Source of the DNA: Candidatus Parcubacteria bacterium
GTDB taxonomy: Bacteria > Patescibacteriota > Microgenomatia > UBA12405
Reading direction: 5' to 3'
NCBI GenBank assembly: GCA_023443725.1
Contig: JAEZTF010000010.1
Location: 29,948-93,947 of the forward strand
DNA: 64,000 nt
Shown: in pieces, positions 74 to 61,532 of the stretch
Layout: each line of letters begins with the position of its first letter
Position numbering within the stretch: the stretch's first letter is position 1
Program-made: the position numbers and the translations under genes
The notes under the pieces: generated by a model
Told to the model about the DNA's origin: nothing
Databases searched by the model: none
The model's input: only the letters and a program-made list of their open reading frames with translations

Positions 74-98
74 AATCCCCTATTTTAGGGGATTTTTT
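74..98 (+). terminator. GC-clamped hairpin AATCCCC-TATTTTA-GGGGATT followed by a T-run (intrinsic-terminator-like on + strand)
   Basis: 7-bp stem with a T-tract at 93..98. A related hairpin (ATCCCCTATTTGGGGA) recurs at 18921..18936. Confidence 0.5.
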
Positions 99-3492: not shown

Positions 3493-4104
3493 TTATTCTA
3501 GAATTCCGTCAAGGTTGACATCGTAGATGATTTCTTCACTAACAAGTCGATAAGAAAGAATCTCTTCTTTAGTAAACCAAACATCAATTTCGGCTTTGGC
3601 TTCTTCAACTGACCCAGAAGAATGGATAATATTTCTAACAGCTCGACTATCAGTGTCAGCCATAGAATAAGAATCGATAGTGTAATCACCTCTAATAGTG
3701 CCTGGAGCTGAAGAAAGTGGTTCTGTGGAACCAGTAATTTTTCTGACGATAGCGACTGCTCCATTTCCTTGCCATATCATAGCCACAACTGGACCACTGC
3801 TCATAAAATCTAAAAGTTTTCGTCTGATGCCTTCAGCAAATTCAACTGGGTCTTTACCAGGAAGTGGTCGACCTTGTTTTTCATAAGCTTCAAAAGATTT
3901 AGTACCGGTTTTAATAGCCCAATCAGGATCAGTAGAATAATGTTTTAGAGCCATTTCTTTAGTTGGAATAACCATTTTTAATGCAACTAATTTAAGTCCA
4001 CAAGTTTCATATCTTTTAATTACTTCACCGATTAGTCCTCTTTGAACTCCATCTGGTTTGATTAATACTAAAGTTTTTTCTTGTTTGACATCGTAATTTT
4101 TCAT
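3493..4104 (-). CDS. ndk: Nucleoside diphosphate kinase, long form with internal insertions and a C-terminal extension
   Basis: KTLVLIKPDGVQRGLIGEVI, FMSSGPVVAM and the NIIHSSGS active-site His region. About 60 aa longer than the E. coli-type Ndk. Confidence 0.85.
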   Translation of the reverse strand: MKNYDVKQEKTLVLIKPDGVQRGLIGEVIKRYETCGLKLVALKMVIPTKEMALKHYSTDPDWAIKTGTKSFEAYEKQGRPLPGKDPVEFAEGIRRKLLDFMSSGPVVAMIWQGNGAVAIVRKITGSTEPLSSAPGTIRGDYTIDSYSMADTDSRAVRNIIHSSGSVEEAKAEIDVWFTKEEILSYRLVSEEIIYDVNLDGILE

Positions 4105-4191: not shown

Positions 4192-4503
4192 ATGGATAAA
4201 ATATTTAAAGCCTTAGCAGATATAAATAGGAGAAAGATAATTACTTTGTTGAATAATAATCAAGAATTGTCTGTTAATCAGTTATTAAAATATTTTGACA
4301 ATATTGGACAATCAACATTGTCAAATCATTTATCAATTTTAAGAAAAGCGAAATTAGTGGAGTTTAAAATATTGGGGAAACAAAGAATATATAGGTTAAA
4401 CAAAGATTTATTAATGGCGTTTGCGGAAAATATGCGTAAATTCGTTGGAAAAACAGATGAATTTGTAGTAGATAATATTGAAATTAGAGGAATAAAGGTG
4501 TAA
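4192..4503 (+). CDS. ArsR/SmtB-family HTH transcriptional regulator
   Basis: FKALADINRRKIITLL...LSVNQLLKYF...STLSNHLSILRKAKLV winged-helix pattern. The ATG at 4192 is preferred over the track's TTG at 4156. Confidence 0.75.
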   Translation: MDKIFKALADINRRKIITLLNNNQELSVNQLLKYFDNIGQSTLSNHLSILRKAKLVEFKILGKQRIYRLNKDLLMAFAENMRKFVGKTDEFVVDNIEIRGIKV

Positions 4504-52758: not shown

Positions 52759-53910
52759 TCATTTTACTAAATTTTTATCAAAAACATTCATTATTGATTT
52801 GGCGGTGTTTTCCCAACTAAATTTGTCGGCTTGTTGTTTGCCAATTAATGAATATTTTTGCCTAACTTTGGGCTGTAAAATCTCAACCATTCTTTCAACC
52901 AGATCTGATTCTTTATTAGGGTCGATAAACAAACCACATTCAGCAACTACTTCTTTAAATGGAGGTATATGGGAAACTATTACCGGGGTGCCAATTTTCA
53001 TAGATTCAATAGCAGGAATACCAAAACCTTCATAAGTACTTGGTAAAATTGAAGCTATAGCATTTTGATAAAGAGTCCATTTTTGATCGTTATCAACAAA
53101 ATCTGTAAAAATCACCTTATCTTCTATCCTCTCTTTTTTGACAGTTTGAAAAATTTCTTCGAATAACCAACCTTTTTTACCAGCAATAACGAGTTTAGGA
53201 ATCAATCTTCCCCCATCCCCTTCTTTGACAAGACGGGGGGTAATATTATTTTGTTTTAAATATTTTGAATAAGATCGAATTAAAAAAGGAATGTTTTTGT
53301 TGGGTTTGAGAGTACCGAGGTATAGAAAGTAACTATTAGCTTTTAGTGAGTAGTTAGACAAAATTTTTTGTTGAGTTGTTTGATCAATTTTTGGTGGAGT
53401 GTCGACACCGTTGTAAGCAATACTAATTTTTTGTGGGTCAATAGAATAAGTTTTGATGATTTCGTCTTTGGAAAATTGGGAAACAGTACAGATATGTTTG
53501 GATTTTTTAATTGATTGAATAGTCCAATTTATGAGTTGATATAAATCTTTTTTGGTAAATTGGGATTGATATTTAAGATAACCGAGATCATGAATAGTAG
53601 GAATAGTAGGACAAGGACAAATAATTGGTGAATAATGACTAGGAGAAAAGAATAAATCTAATTTTTCAGTTTGAAAAAAAAGATGTAATGGCAGAGAAAA
53701 ACGTGTCCATAATTTTTTAGGGCCAAAAACACGATATTGCCAATTGGCATTAGCGGAAGGTAAATCTGATGATGGTTGATCTTTAAGATAAATAATATAT
53801 TGATTATTTTTGTCTAATTGATGGAGTTTAATTAAAACATTGAAAGCATATTGACCAACGCCAACTTTATTAGAAACATTAGCTTCGTTACCATCGATTC
53901 CGATTAGCAT
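52759..53910 (-). CDS. Glycosyltransferase family 4 (carries hairpin module D1 in-frame)
   Basis: GVGQYAFNV N-terminus and YEGFGIPAIESMKIGTPVI. Confidence 0.8.
   Translation of the reverse strand: MLIGIDGNEANVSNKVGVGQYAFNVLIKLHQLDKNNQYIIYLKDQPSSDLPSANANWQYRVFGPKKLWTRFSLPLHLFFQTEKLDLFFSPSHYSPIICPCPTIPTIHDLGYLKYQSQFTKKDLYQLINWTIQSIKKSKHICTVSQFSKDEIIKTYSIDPQKISIAYNGVDTPPKIDQTTQQKILSNYSLKANSYFLYLGTLKPNKNIPFLIRSYSKYLKQNNITPRLVKEGDGGRLIPKLVIAGKKGWLFEEIFQTVKKERIEDKVIFTDFVDNDQKWTLYQNAIASILPSTYEGFGIPAIESMKIGTPVIVSHIPPFKEVVAECGLFIDPNKESDLVERMVEILQPKVRQKYSLIGKQQADKFSWENTAKSIMNVFDKNLVK
53201..53240. repeat. Hairpin module D1 (ATCAATCTTCCCCCATCCCCTTCTTTGACAAGACGGGGGG) inside a GT4 CDS
   Basis: About 33/37 identical to 56907..56944 in a different GT4 gene. 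Contains the CCCC-TTCTT-TGAC-AAGAC-GGGG stem-loop and encodes RLVKEGDGGRLI. Confidence 0.7.
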
Positions 53911-56044: not shown

Positions 56045-56492
56045 TTATTTTTGATAGATCGATGATATCGCCTGCTTTAAGGTTTATTTTTTTAGTTTCA
56101 TTTAGATTTAACTCAATGACATATTTAGCTGGTTGACTATTTTGAAGGATTTTAGTGGAGTTAGTTTCACTAACATTAATAATATCGGTAACCTTACCTT
56201 CTGAATTAAGCCAAATCATGTCTAAAGGAATGAACGTATCTTTCATCCAGAAAGGTAGAACTCCATTTTTGGAAAAAATAAAAATCATGCCACAGTTAGG
56301 ACAAAGGTTGGTTCGATTGGATAGACCAGCTGATTTTTGAGGAGTGGTTTTGGCGACTTCTAATTTGTAATCGATATTTTTAATTTTTAAATTGACAGTT
56401 TCAAACTTAGGTGGCGTTTTTTTGTAAAAGAAAAAAATAACAATTGGAATAGCGATGAGTATAATTAAAGTGATGGTAAGATTTTTTGACAT
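56034..56492 (-). CDS. DUF192 (COG1430-like) domain protein, membrane anchored
   Basis: SAGLSNRTNL...GMIFIF...FWMKDTFIPLDMIW pattern. Confidence 0.65.
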   Translation of the reverse strand: MSKNLTITLIILIAIPIVIFFFYKKTPPKFETVNLKIKNIDYKLEVAKTTPQKSAGLSNRTNLCPNCGMIFIFSKNGVLPFWMKDTFIPLDMIWLNSEGKVTDIINVSETNSTKILQNSQPAKYVIELNLNETKKINLKAGDIIDLSKINDQ

Positions 56493-57748
56493 ATTTTTTG
56501 ACTAACTTTGTTCCAAGTATAATTATTTTTAACATATAAATAACCATTTTGGCCAAATTGACGACAAAGTTTAGGATTAAAAATTAATTGTTGAATTTTT
56601 TGCTGAAGATCATCAATATCATCAGTTTTGAAAGTTAACCCCCCGTTTGATGATTTAACAATTTCTTTTAAAGATGGAATATCTGAAGTAATAACGGCTT
56701 TTTTTCTAGCCCAACTTTCTACTAGAACAAGGCCAAAACTTTCCTGAATTGATGGTAAAACTAAAAATTGGCATTGATCAATAATTGTAATTAAGTCTTT
56801 ATTGCTAACATTAAATTTGAAATGAATTTGTTTTTGGACCGATTTGGGAAGTGATTCAAAATATTTTTTTATTTGAGGAAAAAATAAAGTTTTTTGACCA
56901 ACAAGTATCAATCTTCCCTTAATCCCTTCTTTGACAAGACGGGAAAAACTATTTATTAACAAGTCGACACGTTTATGGGCGGCAAGAGAACCAATAAATA
57001 AGATTGTCAAACCCTTTCCGGATAAACCGGTTTTTCCCTTAAAAAGGGAAACTTTTTTTTCTTTTTTTAAAAATATATCCTCAACACCGTTGCCGGCAAG
57101 AATAATTTTTTTTTGGTTTATATTTAATTTTTTAATAAAAAAATCAGTTTCATATTTAGTTAAAGTCCAAAGATAATCAGCTTGTTGGAGAGTTTTGATA
57201 AGAGGTAAACGAGAAAAGTCGGGATCTGATTGGTGAAAAGAAGAATTGATGAGAAGTTTAGTGGATAATATTTTTCTGAAAAAATTAGCGTATAGAATAA
57301 TGGTGGTGGGAAGTGGGCCGGCAATAATTAACTCTGGTTTAAATTTAATTATTTTAATAGTAGCCCTAATAAAAGGTATGAGTTTAAAAATTGGTCCTTT
57401 TTGAAAAATTTGTAGCAATTGATGAAAGTAAGAGTTTTTGGGGATAAATAAATTAATAAATTTTAGAGGTCGACGAAGATGATGATAAACAGGAAGATAA
57501 ATAAAACCCTTTCCGGATAAACCGGTTTTTCCCTTAAAAAGGGAAACTTTTAAGCTCCCTTTTTTAAGGAGAGATGTCTGAAAGACAGAGGGGTTTTTCT
57601 TAATGAAATCGTCGGTGCTAGAGCAATCGGACGATAAATAAATTACATCATGGCCTTGAGATTCTAATTGATGGCTAAGTTGATAAACTACTTTTGATCC
57701 CCCATCGATAGCGGGAGGAAAAATATGACTAATTGCAAGTATTTTCAT
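56465..57748 (-). CDS. Glycosyltransferase family 4 carrying three in-frame hairpin-repeat segments
   Basis: MKILAISHIFPPAIDGGSK N-terminus and QESFGLVLVESWARKKAVI. The peptide KVSLFKGKTGLSGKG occurs twice. Confidence 0.8.
   Translation of the reverse strand: MKILAISHIFPPAIDGGSKVVYQLSHQLESQGHDVIYLSSDCSSTDDFIKKNPSVFQTSLLKKGSLKVSLFKGKTGLSGKGFIYLPVYHHLRRPLKFINLFIPKNSYFHQLLQIFQKGPIFKLIPFIRATIKIIKFKPELIIAGPLPTTIILYANFFRKILSTKLLINSSFHQSDPDFSRLPLIKTLQQADYLWTLTKYETDFFIKKLNINQKKIILAGNGVEDIFLKKEKKVSLFKGKTGLSGKGLTILFIGSLAAHKRVDLLINSFSRLVKEGIKGRLILVGQKTLFFPQIKKYFESLPKSVQKQIHFKFNVSNKDLITIIDQCQFLVLPSIQESFGLVLVESWARKKAVITSDIPSLKEIVKSSNGGLTFKTDDIDDLQQKIQQLIFNPKLCRQFGQNGYLYVKNNYTWNKVSQKICQKILPSL
56907..56944. 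repeat. Hairpin module D2 (ATCAATCTTCCCTTAATCCCTTCTTTGACAAGACGGGA) inside a GT4 CDS
   Basis: Partner of D1. Encodes SRLVKEGIKGRLI. Confidence 0.7.
57010..57057. repeat. Repeat element copy B (half element, 48 nt, two hairpins)
   Basis: 48/48 identical to 57504..57551. Contains the CCGG-ATAAA-CCGG and TTCCCTT-AAA-AAGGGAA hairpins. Confidence 0.85.
57503..57598. repeat. Repeat element copy A (96 nt, four hairpins, AAAACCC/GGGGTTTT termini), exactly 32 codons in-frame
   Basis: Terminal inverted AAAACCC...GGGGTTTT plus internal hairpins. Occupies codons 51-82 of the GT4 gene (KNPSVFQTSLLKKGSLKVSLFKGKTGLSGKGF). Confidence 0.8.
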
Positions 57749-59198: not shown

Positions 59199-59206
59199 TT
59201 TTTAGT

Positions 59207-59307
59207 TTGTCGAGAGAGTCTTAAAAAAGACTAGCAACCGAGCCTCAAAGGGGTCACGGTGCAATTCCCTACTTGGGAGGACAAGCCTTTATAAATTTAA
59301 ATAAAGG
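59207..59307 (+). promoter_or_regulatory. SAM-I-clan riboswitch-like leader (minimal P2/P4 variant) with an SD-sequestering hairpin
   Basis: P1 UUGUC/GACAA; J1/2 GAGAG; P2 AGUCUU-AAAAA-AGACU; AGCAACC...GGUGC (P3) followed by AAUUCC (as in the SAM-I J3/4); mini P4 CCC-UACUU-GGG; then CCUUUAU-N8-AUAAAGG covering the AAGGA SD. Sits upstream of metK. Confidence 0.6.
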
Positions 59308-59313
59308 AAAAAT

Positions 59314-60432
59314 ATGAATTATTCCCTATTTACGTCAGAATCAGTTTGTGCTGGTCATCCCGATAAAATTTGTGACCAAATTTCAGATACTGTTTTAGAT
59401 ACTGCTTTAGAAATTGATAGAAATTCAAGAGTTGCTTTAGAAACTTTAGTGACCACTAATAAAGTAATAATGGCAGGCGAAGTGACTTGTAGTAAAAAAT
59501 TAGACTATGGACAAATCGCAAAACAAGTAATTAAAGATTTAGGTTATACTAATCCTCTTTTAGGTTTTGATACAAATGCAGACATAGAAGTATTGGTTCA
59601 TCAACAATCAAAAGATATTGCAATTGGAGCCGATAATGACGGTGCAGGTGATCAAGGAATGATGTTTGGTTATGCTTGTAATGAAACACCACAATTGATG
59701 CCATTATCAATTATGTTGTCACAAGAATTATGCAAAAAAATGGATAAACTGCAGTTTGAAAGATTAAATTATTTAAGACCAGATGGTAAGGCAGAAGTGA
59801 CAATTAAATATAATCAAGGAAAACCAGTGGAAATAGTAAAAGTGGTTTTGGCTAAACCAATGGATCTAATAGTTGAAGATACTCAAGCAAAAAAAGATTT
59901 GTATGAATTGGCTGTGTTGCCAATTTTGGAAAAATATAAACTTAATAAAGTAAGCGTAGAAAATGTAATTTTAAATGGTACAGGTAGATGGGAAATTGGT
60001 GGACCAGCAACAGATACTGGAGTAACTGGTCGAAAAATTGTAGTCGATACTTATGGTGGTATGGGACGAATTGGTGGAGGATGTTTTTCAGGTAAAGATC
60101 CAACAAAAGTAGATAGAAGTGCAGCTTATGCTGCTAGATTTATTGCCAAAAATGTAGTGGCTGCAGGATTGGCTGATCGTTGTGAAGTCCAATTGGCCTA
60201 TGTAATTGGTGTTAGAGATCCAATTTCAAAAGCAATTGAAACTTTTGGAACAAACAAAAAAGAAATAAATAAAATTGAAGAATTTGCTTGGAATTTAATG
60301 AATTTATCGGTTAAAGGAATAATTGATAAATTTGATTTAAAAAGACCAATTTACAAAAATACAGCTAGATATGGTCATTTTGGATATGATGAATATCCTT
60401 GGGAACAAATCAAAACCCCTCTGTCTCGATAA
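59314..60432 (+). CDS. metK: S-adenosylmethionine synthetase
   Basis: GHPDKICDQISD, GAGDQGMMFGYA, GGGCFSGKDPTKVDRSAAY. Confidence 0.95.
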   Translation: MNYSLFTSESVCAGHPDKICDQISDTVLDTALEIDRNSRVALETLVTTNKVIMAGEVTCSKKLDYGQIAKQVIKDLGYTNPLLGFDTNADIEVLVHQQSKDIAIGADNDGAGDQGMMFGYACNETPQLMPLSIMLSQELCKKMDKLQFERLNYLRPDGKAEVTIKYNQGKPVEIVKVVLAKPMDLIVEDTQAKKDLYELAVLPILEKYKLNKVSVENVILNGTGRWEIGGPATDTGVTGRKIVVDTYGGMGRIGGGCFSGKDPTKVDRSAAYAARFIAKNVVAAGLADRCEVQLAYVIGVRDPISKAIETFGTNKKEINKIEEFAWNLMNLSVKGIIDKFDLKRPIYKNTARYGHFGYDEYPWEQIKTPLSR

Positions 60433-60464
60433 ATCGAGACATCTCCCCTTGAAAAAGGGAGAAG
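60412..60464. repeat. Repeat element copy C (related to the second half of element A), overlapping the last 6 codons and stop of metK
   Basis: AAAACCCCTCTGTCT[CGATAAATCGAG]ACATCTCCCCTTGAAAAAGGGAG versus the coding-strand reading of A, AAAAACCCCTCTGTCT[TTCAG]ACATCTCTCCTTAAAAAAGGGAG. Confidence 0.75.
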
Positions 60465-60535
60465 TCTTAAAATCATTTTGATGATAAAATTTACTAACTA
60501 AATTATTTATTTATTGCTAATAGCTAATTAACTAC

Positions 60536-60550
60536 TAGCTATTTACTAAT
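60536..60550 (+). repeat. 15-nt motif TAGCTATTTACTAAT 1 nt upstream of the galE ATG, embedded in a TAGCTA-rich stop-dense spacer (60507..60551)
   Basis: Identical to the reverse complement of 30788..30802. Confidence 0.8.
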
Positions 60551-60551
60551 C

Positions 60552-61532
60552 ATGATTTTAATTGTTGGTGGAGCGGGATATATCGGATCCCATATTAATA
60601 AAGAATTAAACAAACAAGGTTTTAAGACAGTAGTTTTTGATAATTTATCTTCTGGAAAAAAAGAATTGGTTAAATGGGGTGAATTTTTTGAAGGCGATTT
60701 AGGAAACATTGAAAATATCAGAGAGGTTTTTAAAAAATATCCAATTGAAGCAGTATTACATTTTGCTGCTTTTAAAGCAGTTGGTGAATCAGTCATTGAT
60801 CCGCAAAAATATTATCAAAACAATGTGGCTAATACTTTAAATTTATTTAAAGTGATGTTGGAAAACAATGTGAAGAAATTTATTTTTTCTTCTTCAGCAG
60901 CGACTTTTGGTGAACCTCAATACATCCCAATTGATGAAAAACATCCACAAAGTCCAATAAATCCTTATGGTGAAACCAAATTGATAGTGGAACATATTAT
61001 GCGAGATTATAGTAAAGCTTATGATTTTAGATATATATCTTTAAGATACTTTAATGCTTGTGGGGCTGATTTAGACGCAGATGTAGGTGAATGGCCCGGT
61101 AGTAGTTCAAATTTAATTCCATTAGTTTTAGATGCAGCAATTGGTAGACGAGAAGATATCAAAGTTTTTGGGACTGATTATGAGACACCAGACGGTACTT
61201 GTGTTCGTGATTATATTCATGTAACTGATTTAGCAGATGCTCACGTATTGGCTTTGAAATATTTAATGGATGGCAAGGAAAGCCAATGTTTTAATTTAGG
61301 AAATGGTAAAGGATTTTCAGTTAAAGAAGTAATTGATGCAGCCAAAAAAATAACTGGAATTGATTTTAAAGTTACTAATGCTGACAGACGAGCTGGTGAT
61401 CCTCCAACTTTGGTGGCTGATGCAAAATTGGCCAGAGAAGTTTTGGGTTGGAATCCACAATATGCTGATTTAGAAACTATTGTTGCCAGCGCGTGGAAAT
61501 GGCACCAAAAAGTATGTAAGCTAATTAGCTAA
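60552..61532 (+). CDS. galE: UDP-glucose 4-epimerase
   Basis: GGAGYIGSH, SSSAATFG, YGETK and the overall SDR-extended pattern. Confidence 0.9.
   Translation: MILIVGGAGYIGSHINKELNKQGFKTVVFDNLSSGKKELVKWGEFFEGDLGNIENIREVFKKYPIEAVLHFAAFKAVGESVIDPQKYYQNNVANTLNLFKVMLENNVKKFIFSSSAATFGEPQYIPIDEKHPQSPINPYGETKLIVEHIMRDYSKAYDFRYISLRYFNACGADLDADVGEWPGSSSNLIPLVLDAAIGRREDIKVFGTDYETPDGTCVRDYIHVTDLADAHVLALKYLMDGKESQCFNLGNGKGFSVKEVIDAAKKITGIDFKVTNADRRAGDPPTLVADAKLAREVLGWNPQYADLETIVASAWKWHQKVCKLIS

What the first reader, a model, noticed from the sequence alone, without database searches (positions are those of the whole stretch)
60412..60464. A copy of the same repeat family supplies the last codons and the stop codon of metK
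AAAACCCCTCTGTCT-CGATAAATCGAG-ACATCTCCCCTTGAAAAAGGGAG matches the coding-strand reading of the second half of element A, except for an expanded central hairpin. It lies in the same orientation relative to the host gene but in a different reading frame. metK ends ...PWEQIKTPLSR*, and IKTPLSR plus the TAA are encoded by the element. An essential housekeeping gene therefore appears to have a 3' end remodelled by a repeat insertion. The two hairpins have no U-tract, so they are not an obvious terminator.
Basis: seen in the sequence. Interest (0 to 1): 0.5.

Follow-up and report, generated by a model that had tools for sequence, protein, structure and literature searches.

The report
Palindromic repeat forms metK's 3' end
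In this tiny-genome (CPR, Shapirobacteria-like) bacterium, a roughly 50-base two-hairpin repeat sits on the stop codon of the essential metK gene and supplies its last six codons and its stop; this kind of event is known from REP, MITE and Rickettsia-type repeats, but the repeat has a 26-base core that is identical in bacteria of many phyla.

Summary
metK (59314..60432) ends PWEQI-KTPLSR*. KTPLSR and the TAA stop are encoded by a GC-rich two-hairpin unit (60413-60464), and the stop lies in the loop of hairpin 1. A second copy lies in frame inside a glycosyltransferase gene (57555-57597, minus strand).

Of 120 MetK relatives, nearly all end 2-4 residues after PWE. Homology to Pfam and to solved structures stops at residue 365-367. 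The only other KTPLSR tail (P0059, 73% identical) has the same element in its DNA. Other lineages carry a hairpin-1 deletion derivative or a different module at the same spot.

The element behaves like REP/BIME, RPE or MITE repeats: it is modular, lies near gene 3' ends in either orientation, and is tolerated in frame. No terminator U-tract is present.

Unexpectedly, the core AAACCCCTCTGTC-[covarying hairpin]-GACATCTCCCCTT occurs in at least 118 loci from many phyla. It has no Rfam match and lacks the features of GTAG/CGTC REPs.

Verdict: the repeat really did remodel the gene end. It is a new member of a known kind. The cross-phylum core and the reuse of the same sites by different modules remain unexplained.

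The parts
59202..59323 (+). SAM-I/IV riboswitch upstream of metK (context)
   Evidence: Rfam RF01725, 42.7 bits against a gathering score of 41.1
59314..60432 (+). metK CDS (372 aa). Residues 1-366 are homologous to MetK; residues 367-372 (KTPLSR) and the stop come from the repeat.
   Evidence: Pfam PF00438/PF02772/PF02773, with the C-terminal domain ending at residue 365; PDB alignments end at 364-367; C-termini of 120 relatives
60413..60464 (+). Repeat unit of the metK type ('family 1'): head AAACCCCTC, hairpin 1, hairpin 2, and tail AAG
   Evidence: matches the cross-phylum consensus
60422..60441 (+). Hairpin 1 (TGTCTCGA-TAAA-TCGAGACA); the metK stop codon TAA (60430-60432) is the first three loop bases
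   Evidence: Fold results; this stem covaries across copies
60442..60462 (+). Hairpin 2 (TCTCCCCTT-GAAA-AAGGGAGA), entirely 3' of the stop codon
   Evidence: Fold results; conserved in all copies
57555..57597 (-). Second family-1 unit, in frame inside the GT4 glycosyltransferase (encodes NPSVFQTSLLKKGS)
   Evidence: an insertion relative to orthologues
57504..57551 (+). 48-nt module (AAACCCTTTCCGGATAAACCGGTTTTTCCCTTAAAAAGGGAAACTTTT), tail to tail with the unit above; encodes KVSLFKGKTGLSGKGF on the minus strand
   Evidence: 48/48 identical at the orthologous site of L007
57009..57056 (+). Second, exact copy of the 48-nt module in the same GT gene, in frame
56907..56943 (+). 'Family 2' module (CTTCCC..CCCTTCTTTGACAAGACGGG) in frame in the same GT gene
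53201..53237 (+). 'Family 2' module causing a 12-aa in-frame insertion in GT4 gene 52759..53910
   Evidence: The same family forms the MetK tail TNPSPSLPLTGQGVSF in L007.
60552..61532 (+). Downstream galE-like epimerase gene (context; 120-nt spacer after metK)

Best explanation
A short GC-rich palindromic repeat unit became fixed across the original stop codon of metK. The unit consists of the head AAACCCCTC, a variable hairpin and a second hairpin UCUCCCCUU/AAGGGAGA. It belongs to a modular family of dispersed elements resembling REP/BIME and RPE repeats. Translation now runs from the conserved ...PWEQI into the element, reads six element-encoded codons (KTPLSR) and stops at a TAA in the AT-rich loop of hairpin 1. 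The change is tolerated because the MetK C-terminus beyond PWExI is short, variable and outside the conserved fold. Shown: the identity of the repeat, its boundaries, the loss of homology, recurrence at the same site in other lineages, and REP-like genomic behaviour. Inferred: the element is primarily a selfish or neutral DNA-level repeat, spread or refreshed by transposition and/or gene conversion between copies. Also inferred: its only likely effect on metK is the generic one of a stable 3' hairpin pair, meaning some protection of the mRNA 3' end and possibly slowed termination because the ribosome must melt both hairpins to reach and vacate the stop codon.
For: Sequence and frame. Repeat identity above chance. 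End of homology: Pfam at residue 365 and PDB at 364-367; nearly all of 120 relatives end 2-4 residues after PWE. Syntenic relatives L004, L010 and L011 have no element. Same element at the same junction in L001, 51/54 identical, against 74.5% for the CDS and 53% for the spacer. L006 has the same unit minus 24 nt (hairpin 1); this removes the loop stop codon, so the ORF reads through hairpin 2 to give ETPPLKKGRSF*, showing that the tail is dictated by the element. L007, P0011 and P0050 have a different module at the same place. Tail-bearing MetKs are polyphyletic. Other CPR genes end in the hairpin-1 loop TAA (L051 KPLCR*, L047 KPLCQ*), are extended (L063), or carry the unit internally in all three frames. 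REP-like behaviour across 129 copies: convergent 13 against divergent 3; within 30 nt of gene 3' ends 14 against 5' ends 3; orientation 16 sense against 18 antisense; mosaic arrays. Hairpin 1 covaries: 98.1% paired against 81.9% in shuffles, 0/500 shuffles reach the observed score. Precedents: REP termini supply stop codons and REPs occur inside genes (PMC3733652); Coxiella QMITEs overlap the 3' ends of functional genes and give terminal residues or the stop (PMC5896051).
Against: No transposase, target-site duplication or clean empty site was found, so mobility is inferred and not shown. In the 'empty' relatives the corresponding spacer is not simply the window minus the element. The very high conservation of the element between distant genomes (51/54 and 48/48) and of its core across phyla is more than a neutral passenger would show. 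It implies constraint on the sequence itself, either for its propagation or for a host function that I could not identify. The same four sites are occupied in distant genomes but are empty in the closest relatives, which a simple single-insertion story does not explain.
Confidence: 0.75

Rival explanations
1. The element was recruited as a functional 3' module of the metK transcription unit. It would act as a factor-dependent or non-canonical terminator/insulator, or as an mRNA-stabilising 3' end, separating riboswitch-controlled metK from galE. Under this view it is retained by selection at this site.
For: The site is occupied by one module or another in at least four MetK lineages. The element is far better conserved than its flanks. 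metK is riboswitch-regulated and galE starts 120 nt downstream. The two hairpins are stable. REPs are known to stabilise mRNA, and within 15 nt of a stop codon they modulate translation (PMC12306157, PMC3733652).
Against: There is no U-tract and no terminator-like call. The same modules sit in frame in the middle of glycosyltransferase genes, where termination would be harmful. There is no orientation preference relative to the adjacent gene across 34 gene-proximal copies. The closest relatives manage without any element or strong hairpin at this position.
Confidence: 0.2
2. The conserved core is a strand-specific structured RNA (an undescribed cis-regulatory or small-RNA motif). On this reading the metK copy is one functional instance and not a repeat insertion.
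For: There are invariant single-stranded flanks plus a freely covarying helix across phyla, which is the classic signature of a functional structured nucleic acid. Copies are enriched just after stop codons.
Against: No Rfam family matches, even at permissive thresholds. Orientation relative to neighbouring genes is random, 16 against 18. G-U pairs (2) are no commoner than A-C (5) in the covarying positions, and the loops are mostly 3-nt loops and not RNA tetraloops. Copies occur in tandem or mosaic arrays and inside ORFs in all three frames, which is typical of DNA repeats.
Confidence: 0.1
3. KTPLSR is the ancestral or functionally selected MetK C-terminus, and the similarity to the repeat is secondary.
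For: P0059, only 73% identical overall, has the identical tail.
Against: 118 of 120 relatives lack it. The P0059 locus carries the full element, including its non-coding half. L006's deletion of hairpin 1 changes the tail to ETPPLKKGRSF. Homology to all solved MetKs ends before the tail.
Confidence: 0.02
4. Assembly or binning artefact: a chimeric join at a repeat.
For: Repeats can cause mis-joins in metagenome assemblies, and all exact-core hits are in MAGs.
Against: Identical sequence and synteny appear in independent assemblies from different samples (L008 from ENA, L009 from Logan; L001-L003 from three runs). Gene order is conserved on both sides in seven genomes. Related copies are present in finished replicons of cultured Rhizobiaceae.
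Confidence: 0.01

Closest known systems
REP/BIME elements (repetitive extragenic palindromes; GTAG- and CGTC-tagged superfamilies, Di Nocera et al. 2013, PMC3733652)
   Same: Short GC-rich stem-loops with conserved unpaired flanks. Multi-copy, often arranged as head-to-head or tail-to-tail dimers and mosaic arrays. Enriched between convergent or co-directional genes close to 3' ends. Some copies overlap ORF ends and supply stop codons, and some lie inside genes. Hairpin sequence is similar within a genome and differs between genomes.
   Different: No GTAG or CGTC tag. The TGTC here is base-paired, the stem does not start with A-T pairs, and there is no CCA tail. The unit has two hairpins. The 26-nt core is identical across phyla, whereas REP consensus sequences are lineage-specific. 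No RAYT association could be examined. In CPR genomes nearly half of the copies touch ORFs.
Rickettsia palindromic elements (RPEs)
   Same: Palindromic repeats in a small AT-rich genome that insert in frame into unrelated housekeeping and metabolic genes and are tolerated (PMC10969869, PMC3733652).
   Different: RPE-1 elements are about 100-150 bp and specific to Rickettsia. The units here are about 35-50 nt, are combined modularly, and belong to a family with cross-phylum distribution. Sequence relatedness to RPEs was not tested.
Coxiella burnetii QMITE1/QMITE2 (Wachter et al. 2018, PMC5896051)
   Same: Copies overlap the 3' ends of functional genes by 1-50 bp. They supply terminal amino acids and/or the stop codon without much change in protein size. 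One case (enhC in the Dugway strain) is a C-terminal extension controlled by an indel, which parallels the window and L006 pair here.
   Different: QMITEs have terminal inverted repeats and direct repeats and are larger. No TIR or TSD is evident for the metK unit.
Rhizobial intergenic repeats (RIMEs, Sm-repeats, AB/C palindromes; cited in PMC2573895)
   Same: Rhizobiaceae and Pannonibacter replicons contain a GC-rich version of the same core, e.g. CCCCCCTCTGTCAGCTTGCGCTGACATCTCCCCCTCAAGGGGGGAGA at L135:1499-1545.
   Different: I could not obtain the published consensus sequences, so I do not know which named rhizobial repeat (if any) this corresponds to. The head is CCCCCC, not AAACCCC.
Mobile GC clusters of yeast mitochondrial DNA (own knowledge, not checked here)
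   Same: Short GC-rich palindromic modules invading an AT-rich genome, including coding regions.
   Different: Organellar and eukaryotic, with no sequence relationship known.

Membership tests
REP (repetitive extragenic palindrome) in the broad sense | Short (about 20-40 nt) imperfect palindrome forming a GC-rich stem-loop | tested here: met
   Hairpin 1 is 20 nt and hairpin 2 is 21 nt. Folds are z = -3.1 (RNA) and -4.4 (DNA). Covariation is shown.
REP (repetitive extragenic palindrome) in the broad sense | Many copies per genome sharing a consensus | tested here: inconclusive
   The 64-kb window holds 2 family-1 units, 2 copies of the 48-nt module and 2 family-2 modules. One MAG (CAYGUI01) holds at least 11 exact-core copies in the fragments fetched. 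No complete genome could be counted.
REP (repetitive extragenic palindrome) in the broad sense | Mostly extragenic, near gene 3' ends, with convergent/unidirectional locations far commoner than divergent | tested here: met
   Convergent 13 against divergent 3. Within 30 nt of 3' ends 14 against 5' ends 3. In CPR genomes 9 of 20 copies touch ORFs.
GTAG- or CGTC-tagged REP superfamilies (PMC3733652) | Unpaired terminal GTAG or CGTC (TGTC/CCTC) tag; 8-9 bp stem beginning with two A-T pairs; 4-5 nt loop; CCA-like tail | tested here: not met
   A TGTC is present but its GTC pairs with GAC. The first variable pair is A-T in only 34 of 88 inserts. Stem length beyond GTC/GAC is variable. The tail is ATCTCCCC, not CCA. 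Peptides encoded by CGTC REPs (VIAGLDPAIH and similar) are unrelated.
REPIN/REP mobilised by RAYT (IS200/IS605-like Y1 transposase) | A RAYT gene flanked by the same REPs in the genome | not testable with these tools
MITE | Terminal inverted repeats and target-site duplication | tested here: not met
   The metK unit has no TIR. Only the composite in the GT gene has complementary ends, AAACCCC...GGGTTT. The flanks of 129 copies show no conserved or duplicated target.
Rickettsia palindromic elements | In-frame insertion into unrelated protein-coding genes of a reduced genome | tested here: met
   In-frame insertions in GT4 genes and in RimK-like, O-antigen-ligase-like and other ORFs of CPR genomes, in three frames.
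Rickettsia palindromic elements | Sequence membership in RPE-1 to RPE-10 families of Rickettsia | not tested
   No RPE consensus sequences were available to compare.
Intrinsic (Rho-independent) terminator | GC-rich hairpin followed directly by a U-tract | tested here: not met
   No terminator-like site at 60400-60550. Hairpin 2 is followed by AAGTCTTAAAATC.
Any Rfam 15 RNA family | Covariance-model match | tested here: not met
   The window at gathering threshold and six element-bearing loci at E<=1 gave only tRNA, rRNA, the riboswitch and chance hits.

The most novel reading that the evidence does not exclude
The metK element is one instance of an undescribed, pan-bacterial superfamily of modular hairpin repeats. 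Its 26-nt core (AAACCCCTCTGTC...GACATCTCCCCTT) is held invariant across CPR, Firmicutes, Bacteroidota, Proteobacteria and other phyla because it is the recognition site of a widely conserved trans-acting machine. That machine could be a mobilising enzyme without a dedicated REPtron, or a housekeeping nucleic-acid-processing factor. The superfamily re-uses or overwrites the same genomic 'landing sites', including stop codons and protein loops, over long evolutionary times.
Probability: 0.3. Interest if true: 0.75.

Novelty: new member of a known kind. Interest (0 to 1): 0.5.

Why it matters
For metK itself the consequence is probably small: a six-residue neutral tail and a hairpin-rich 3' end. 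The case still matters in three ways. First, it shows that in CPR/Patescibacteria, whose compact AT-rich genomes have little intergenic space, palindromic repeats are accommodated inside genes and on stop codons, even of essential genes. This inflates and diversifies protein termini and loops, and it can mislead annotation and homology-based trimming. Second, the same few sites are occupied by different modules in distant genomes. That offers a tractable system for studying how such repeats spread, whether by transposition, gene conversion or site preference. Third, a 26-nt core identical from Shapirobacteria to Clostridia and Bacteroidia, with a relative in Rhizobiaceae, is unusual for REP-like DNA. 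It suggests a conserved partner that could be found by phylogenetic profiling.

Tried and rejected
- **Rfam.** Scans at gathering threshold on the window and at E<=1 on six element-bearing loci found no family.
- **Literature by sequence.** Full-text searches for the core DNA strings and for the rhizobial peptide signatures gave only chance hits. Searches for CPR palindromic insertions found nothing specific.
- **Papers not held.** The S. meliloti genome paper and the original RIME paper are not in the library, so the rhizobial copies could not be named.
- **Metagenome scan.** The scan for MetK(WE)-element fusions returned 36 hits that were almost all chance or partial 13-mer matches, with no new MetK cases.
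- **Viral contigs.** Only 4 hits among 2.9 million contigs, so phages are not an obvious vector.
- **Retracted idea.** I first read the hairpin-1 loops as UUCG/GNRA tetraloops, which would be an RNA signature. On inspection they are mostly 3-nt loops (TTC, TAC, TGC) closed by GTCC/GGAC, so I withdrew that argument.
- **Strict hairpin census.** A perfect-stem hairpin census missed most modules and was abandoned in favour of BLAST and regex censuses.
- **CGTC-REP membership.** Considered because of the TGTC head, and rejected on the stem, tail and encoded-peptide criteria.
- **Promoter idea.** A promoter-like match that begins in hairpin 2 (60449-60476) is no better than shuffled background.
- **Not attempted.** A covariance model of the element and a whole-genome copy count.
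Full report
**1. What is at the coordinates**

The window is 29.8% G+C. The ORF 59314..60432 (+) encodes a 372-aa protein with the three S-adenosylmethionine synthetase domains. A SAM-I/IV riboswitch precedes it at 59202-59323. Its closest database relatives are annotated as Candidatus Shapirobacteria.

In the metK frame, 60412-60432 reads AAA ACC CCT CTG TCT CGA TAA, which is K T P L S R stop.

RNA and DNA folding both give two adjacent hairpins. Hairpin 1 is 60422-60441, with an 8-bp stem and loop TAAA. Hairpin 2 is 60442-60462. The stop codon is the first three bases of the hairpin-1 loop.

**2. It is a copy of a repeat**

The exact 15-mer AAAACCCCTCTGTCT and a 17/19 match to hairpin 2 recur, colinear, on the minus strand at 57555-57597. 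About 0.02 matches are expected by chance. That copy lies inside the glycosyltransferase ORF 56465..57748. It is sense to the gene but in another frame (NPSVFQTSLLKKGS), and its hairpin 1 is shorter.

The family-1 unit is joined tail to tail to a 48-nt module. That module also occurs alone, as an exact copy, at 57009-57056 and in another genome.

A third module type ('family 2') lies at 53201-53237 and 56907-56943.

All module types begin with AAACCCYT. Within the window they are confined to the 53-60.5 kb glycosyltransferase-metK block.

**3. The element replaces the native end of MetK**

- Of the 120 best MetK homologues, nearly all are 366-370 aa and end PWExI plus 0-2 further residues.
- The Pfam C-terminal domain ends at residue 365. 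Alignments to all solved MetK structures end at 364-367.
- Syntenic loci from relatives at 87%, 85% and 82% identity (L004, L010, L011) have no element and stop at PWERIVNSK*, PWEEISK* and PWEKIR*.
- The isoleucine is therefore ancestral. The element supplies KTPLSR and the stop.

**4. The refutation test**

One other homologue, P0059 (73% identical), ends in KTPLSR. Its DNA (L001-L003, from three sequencing runs) carries the same element at the same junction.

The element is 51/54 identical between the two genomes, differing only in loop 2. The metK CDS is 74.5% identical and the downstream spacer about 53%.

L006 (83% identical) has the same unit lacking exactly 24 nt, which is hairpin 1 with its loop stop codon. 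Its MetK consequently reads through hairpin 2 and ends ETPPLKKGRSF*.

L007, P0011 and P0050 end TNPSP(S/T)LPLTGQGV(S/N)F*. In L007 that tail is encoded by a family-2 module starting two to three bases away.

On a neighbour-joining tree, the tail-bearing MetKs fall in at least four separate places. The metK stop codon has thus been occupied repeatedly or for a long time.

**5. The same holds at other sites**

Protein alignments show clean in-frame insertions in two glycosyltransferases. At each of three further orthologous sites, the window and the distant genomes L001 and L007 are occupied. The closest relatives L004, L010 and L011 are not, and they show no detectable module anywhere in 15-21 kb of syntenic DNA.

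Module content at a given site can be identical. The 48-nt module is 48/48 between the window and L007, inside a gene that is 66.8% identical. It can also differ: family 1 plus the 48-nt module in the window, the 48-nt module alone in L007, and reversed family 2 in L001. The junction with host sequence (…AAGGGTTT|) stays the same.

I cannot decide between two accounts. One is ancient occupancy with module turnover by gene conversion and loss. The other is strong site preference with repeated gain. This is recorded as unexplained.

**6. The family is not confined to this lineage**

The hits come from Shapiro-, Woese-, Peri-, Abscondita-, Falkow-, Komeili- and Parcubacteria. They also come from Clostridia (Acutalibacteraceae, Oscillospiraceae, Christensenellaceae), Bacteroidia, Flavobacteriia, MAGs labelled Gammaproteobacteria, Synergistota, Cloacimonadota, Riflebacteria and Syntrophaceae. 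The loci range from 28 to 69% G+C.

The consensus is AAACCCCTCTGTC-[hairpin]-GACATCTCCCCTT-[loop]-(A)AGGGGAGA.

The enclosed hairpin differs between genomes and is similar within a genome. It covaries:
- Among 88 distinct inserts, the first three positions are paired in 80/88, 72/88 and 52/63.
- On a MAFFT/RNAalifold alignment of 62 copies, the first variable pair is CG 21, AU 19, GC 12, UA 6, GU 1, other 3.
- 98.1% of cells pair against 81.9% in shuffles, with 58 double-sided changes against 19 and 0/500 shuffles reaching the observed score. Slid registers collapse.

No Rfam family matches, and full-text searches for the sequence found nothing. Only four viral contigs carry it.

Finished replicons of cultured Rhizobiaceae and Pannonibacter carry a GC-rich version of the same core. 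From my own knowledge, this underlies the frequent '...ISPxxGE...' peptides in Rhizobiales annotations. Rhizobia are known to have several annotated repeat classes (PMC2573895). I could not establish which, if any, corresponds to this core.

**7. How it behaves**

Across the 129 copies, most are intergenic. Convergent intergenic regions outnumber divergent ones 13 to 3. Copies lie within 30 nt of a gene 3' end 14 times and of a 5' end 3 times. Orientation relative to the adjacent gene is random, 16 sense against 18 antisense.

In six cases the stop codon TAA overlaps the leading AAA of the element (TAAACCCC). In L047 and L051 the ORF ends in the hairpin-1 loop TAA, as in the window.

Copies occur in tandem and in mosaic arrays with other GC-rich hairpins.

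Copies in CPR genomes touch ORFs more often than copies elsewhere: 9/20, or 14/27 including CPR-like bins, against 21/94. They are read in all three frames, giving KTPLS..., NPSV... or KPLC....

G-U pairs are not favoured over A-C, and the loops are mostly 3-nt loops. There is therefore no sign of strand-specific RNA selection.

This is the behaviour described for REP/BIME elements. That description includes REP termini providing stop codons and REPs lying inside genes (PMC3733652). It also matches Coxiella QMITEs, which overlap the 3' ends of functional genes and supply terminal residues or the stop (PMC5896051), and Rickettsia RPEs, which insert in frame (PMC10969869).

The element nevertheless fails the defining features of the GTAG and CGTC REP superfamilies. 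It shows no TIR or TSD as a MITE would.

**8. Mechanism at metK**

Shown: translation must run from the conserved PWEQI into the element and terminate in the loop of hairpin 1. The rest of hairpin 1 and all of hairpin 2 form the first 30 nt of the 3' UTR. No U-tract or terminator-like site follows. galE starts 120 nt downstream.

Inferred: the six-residue tail is neutral, because this clade tolerates 2 to about 30 residues after PWE. The hairpins may protect the 3' end of the mRNA. Because the stop codon is embedded in a stable helix, they may also slow termination, as reported for E. coli REPs within 15 nt of a stop codon (cited in PMC12306157).

A dedicated terminator or insulator role is possible but less likely. 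The same modules sit in the middle of ORFs, they have no orientation preference, and the closest relatives lack them.

**9. Verdict**

As an event it is a new member of a known kind: a palindromic repeat overlapping and remodelling a gene's 3' end. It is notable for affecting an essential gene in a CPR bacterium.

Two features remain unexplained and give it moderate interest. One is the cross-phylum invariance of the core. The other is the re-use of the same sites by different modules.

Noticed in passing
window 56465-57748 (minus-strand GT4 gene): 57555-57597, 57504-57551, 57009-57056, 56907-56943: One glycosyltransferase gene carries four repeat modules, all in frame. The peptide KVSLFKGKTGLSGKG appears twice, from two exact 48-nt copies. 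Orthologues in the closest relatives lack all of them.
   Followed up: yes
window 53201-53237 (GT4 gene 52759..53910); L007:4449-4485; L001:~4220-4255: A 12-residue in-frame insertion sits at the same site of a second glycosyltransferase in three distant genomes. It is encoded by family-2 modules in the window and L007 and by a family-1-like hairpin in L001. It is absent from L004, L006 and L010.
   Followed up: yes
loci L012-L129 (genome-contig hits): The 26-nt core of the element is identical in at least 118 loci from many bacterial phyla (28-69% G+C), with a covarying internal hairpin. Every exact hit is in a MAG. There is no Rfam family or literature match.
   Followed up: partly
L135:1499-1545 (Pannonibacter plasmid); L134:1100-1700 (S. 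meliloti pSymB): GC-rich versions of the same core occur in cultured Alphaproteobacteria. In pSymB, several copies lie in an unannotated, acidic ORF-like stretch after mtaB.
   Followed up: partly
L119:400-640; L083:1944-2029: A low-GC MAG labelled Gammaproteobacteria has BIME-like mosaics and tandem copies of the element mixed with other GC-rich hairpin modules, located between convergent genes.
   Followed up: partly
L051:3541-3574 and 4020-4050: In another Shapirobacteria genome, one copy ends a RimK-like ATP-grasp ORF (KPLCR*). A second copy is in frame inside the adjacent paralogue, just upstream of tRNA and 23S rRNA genes.
   Followed up: partly
window 60495-60550; L004:11100-11175; L010:10830-10880; L011:8540-8580: The spacers downstream of metK are made of stop-codon-rich units of about 7 nt (TAATAGC/TAGCTAG/TAGATNN). 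A similar TAGATNN-type periodic AT-rich segment fills the glycosyltransferase insertion site in the genomes that lack GC-rich modules.
   Followed up: no
window 59202-59323: There is a SAM-I/IV riboswitch upstream of metK, just above the Rfam gathering score.
   Followed up: no
L004:11175-11522; L010:10883-11230: A 115-aa gene of the four-helix-bundle type (23S rRNA IVP / bAvd-like) is inserted between metK and galE in two relatives and is absent from the window.
   Followed up: no
window 74-94: An isolated intergenic hairpin, AATCCCCTATTTTAGGGGATT, has the same CCCC/GGGG flavour as the modules but lacks the AAACCC head.
   Followed up: no
protein P0086 (MetK homologue): This MetK has a 30-residue heptad-like C-terminal extension (DYRSEISDLRSQVSDLKEQISGFRTQI). 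It is another example of how freely this terminus is remodelled.
   Followed up: no
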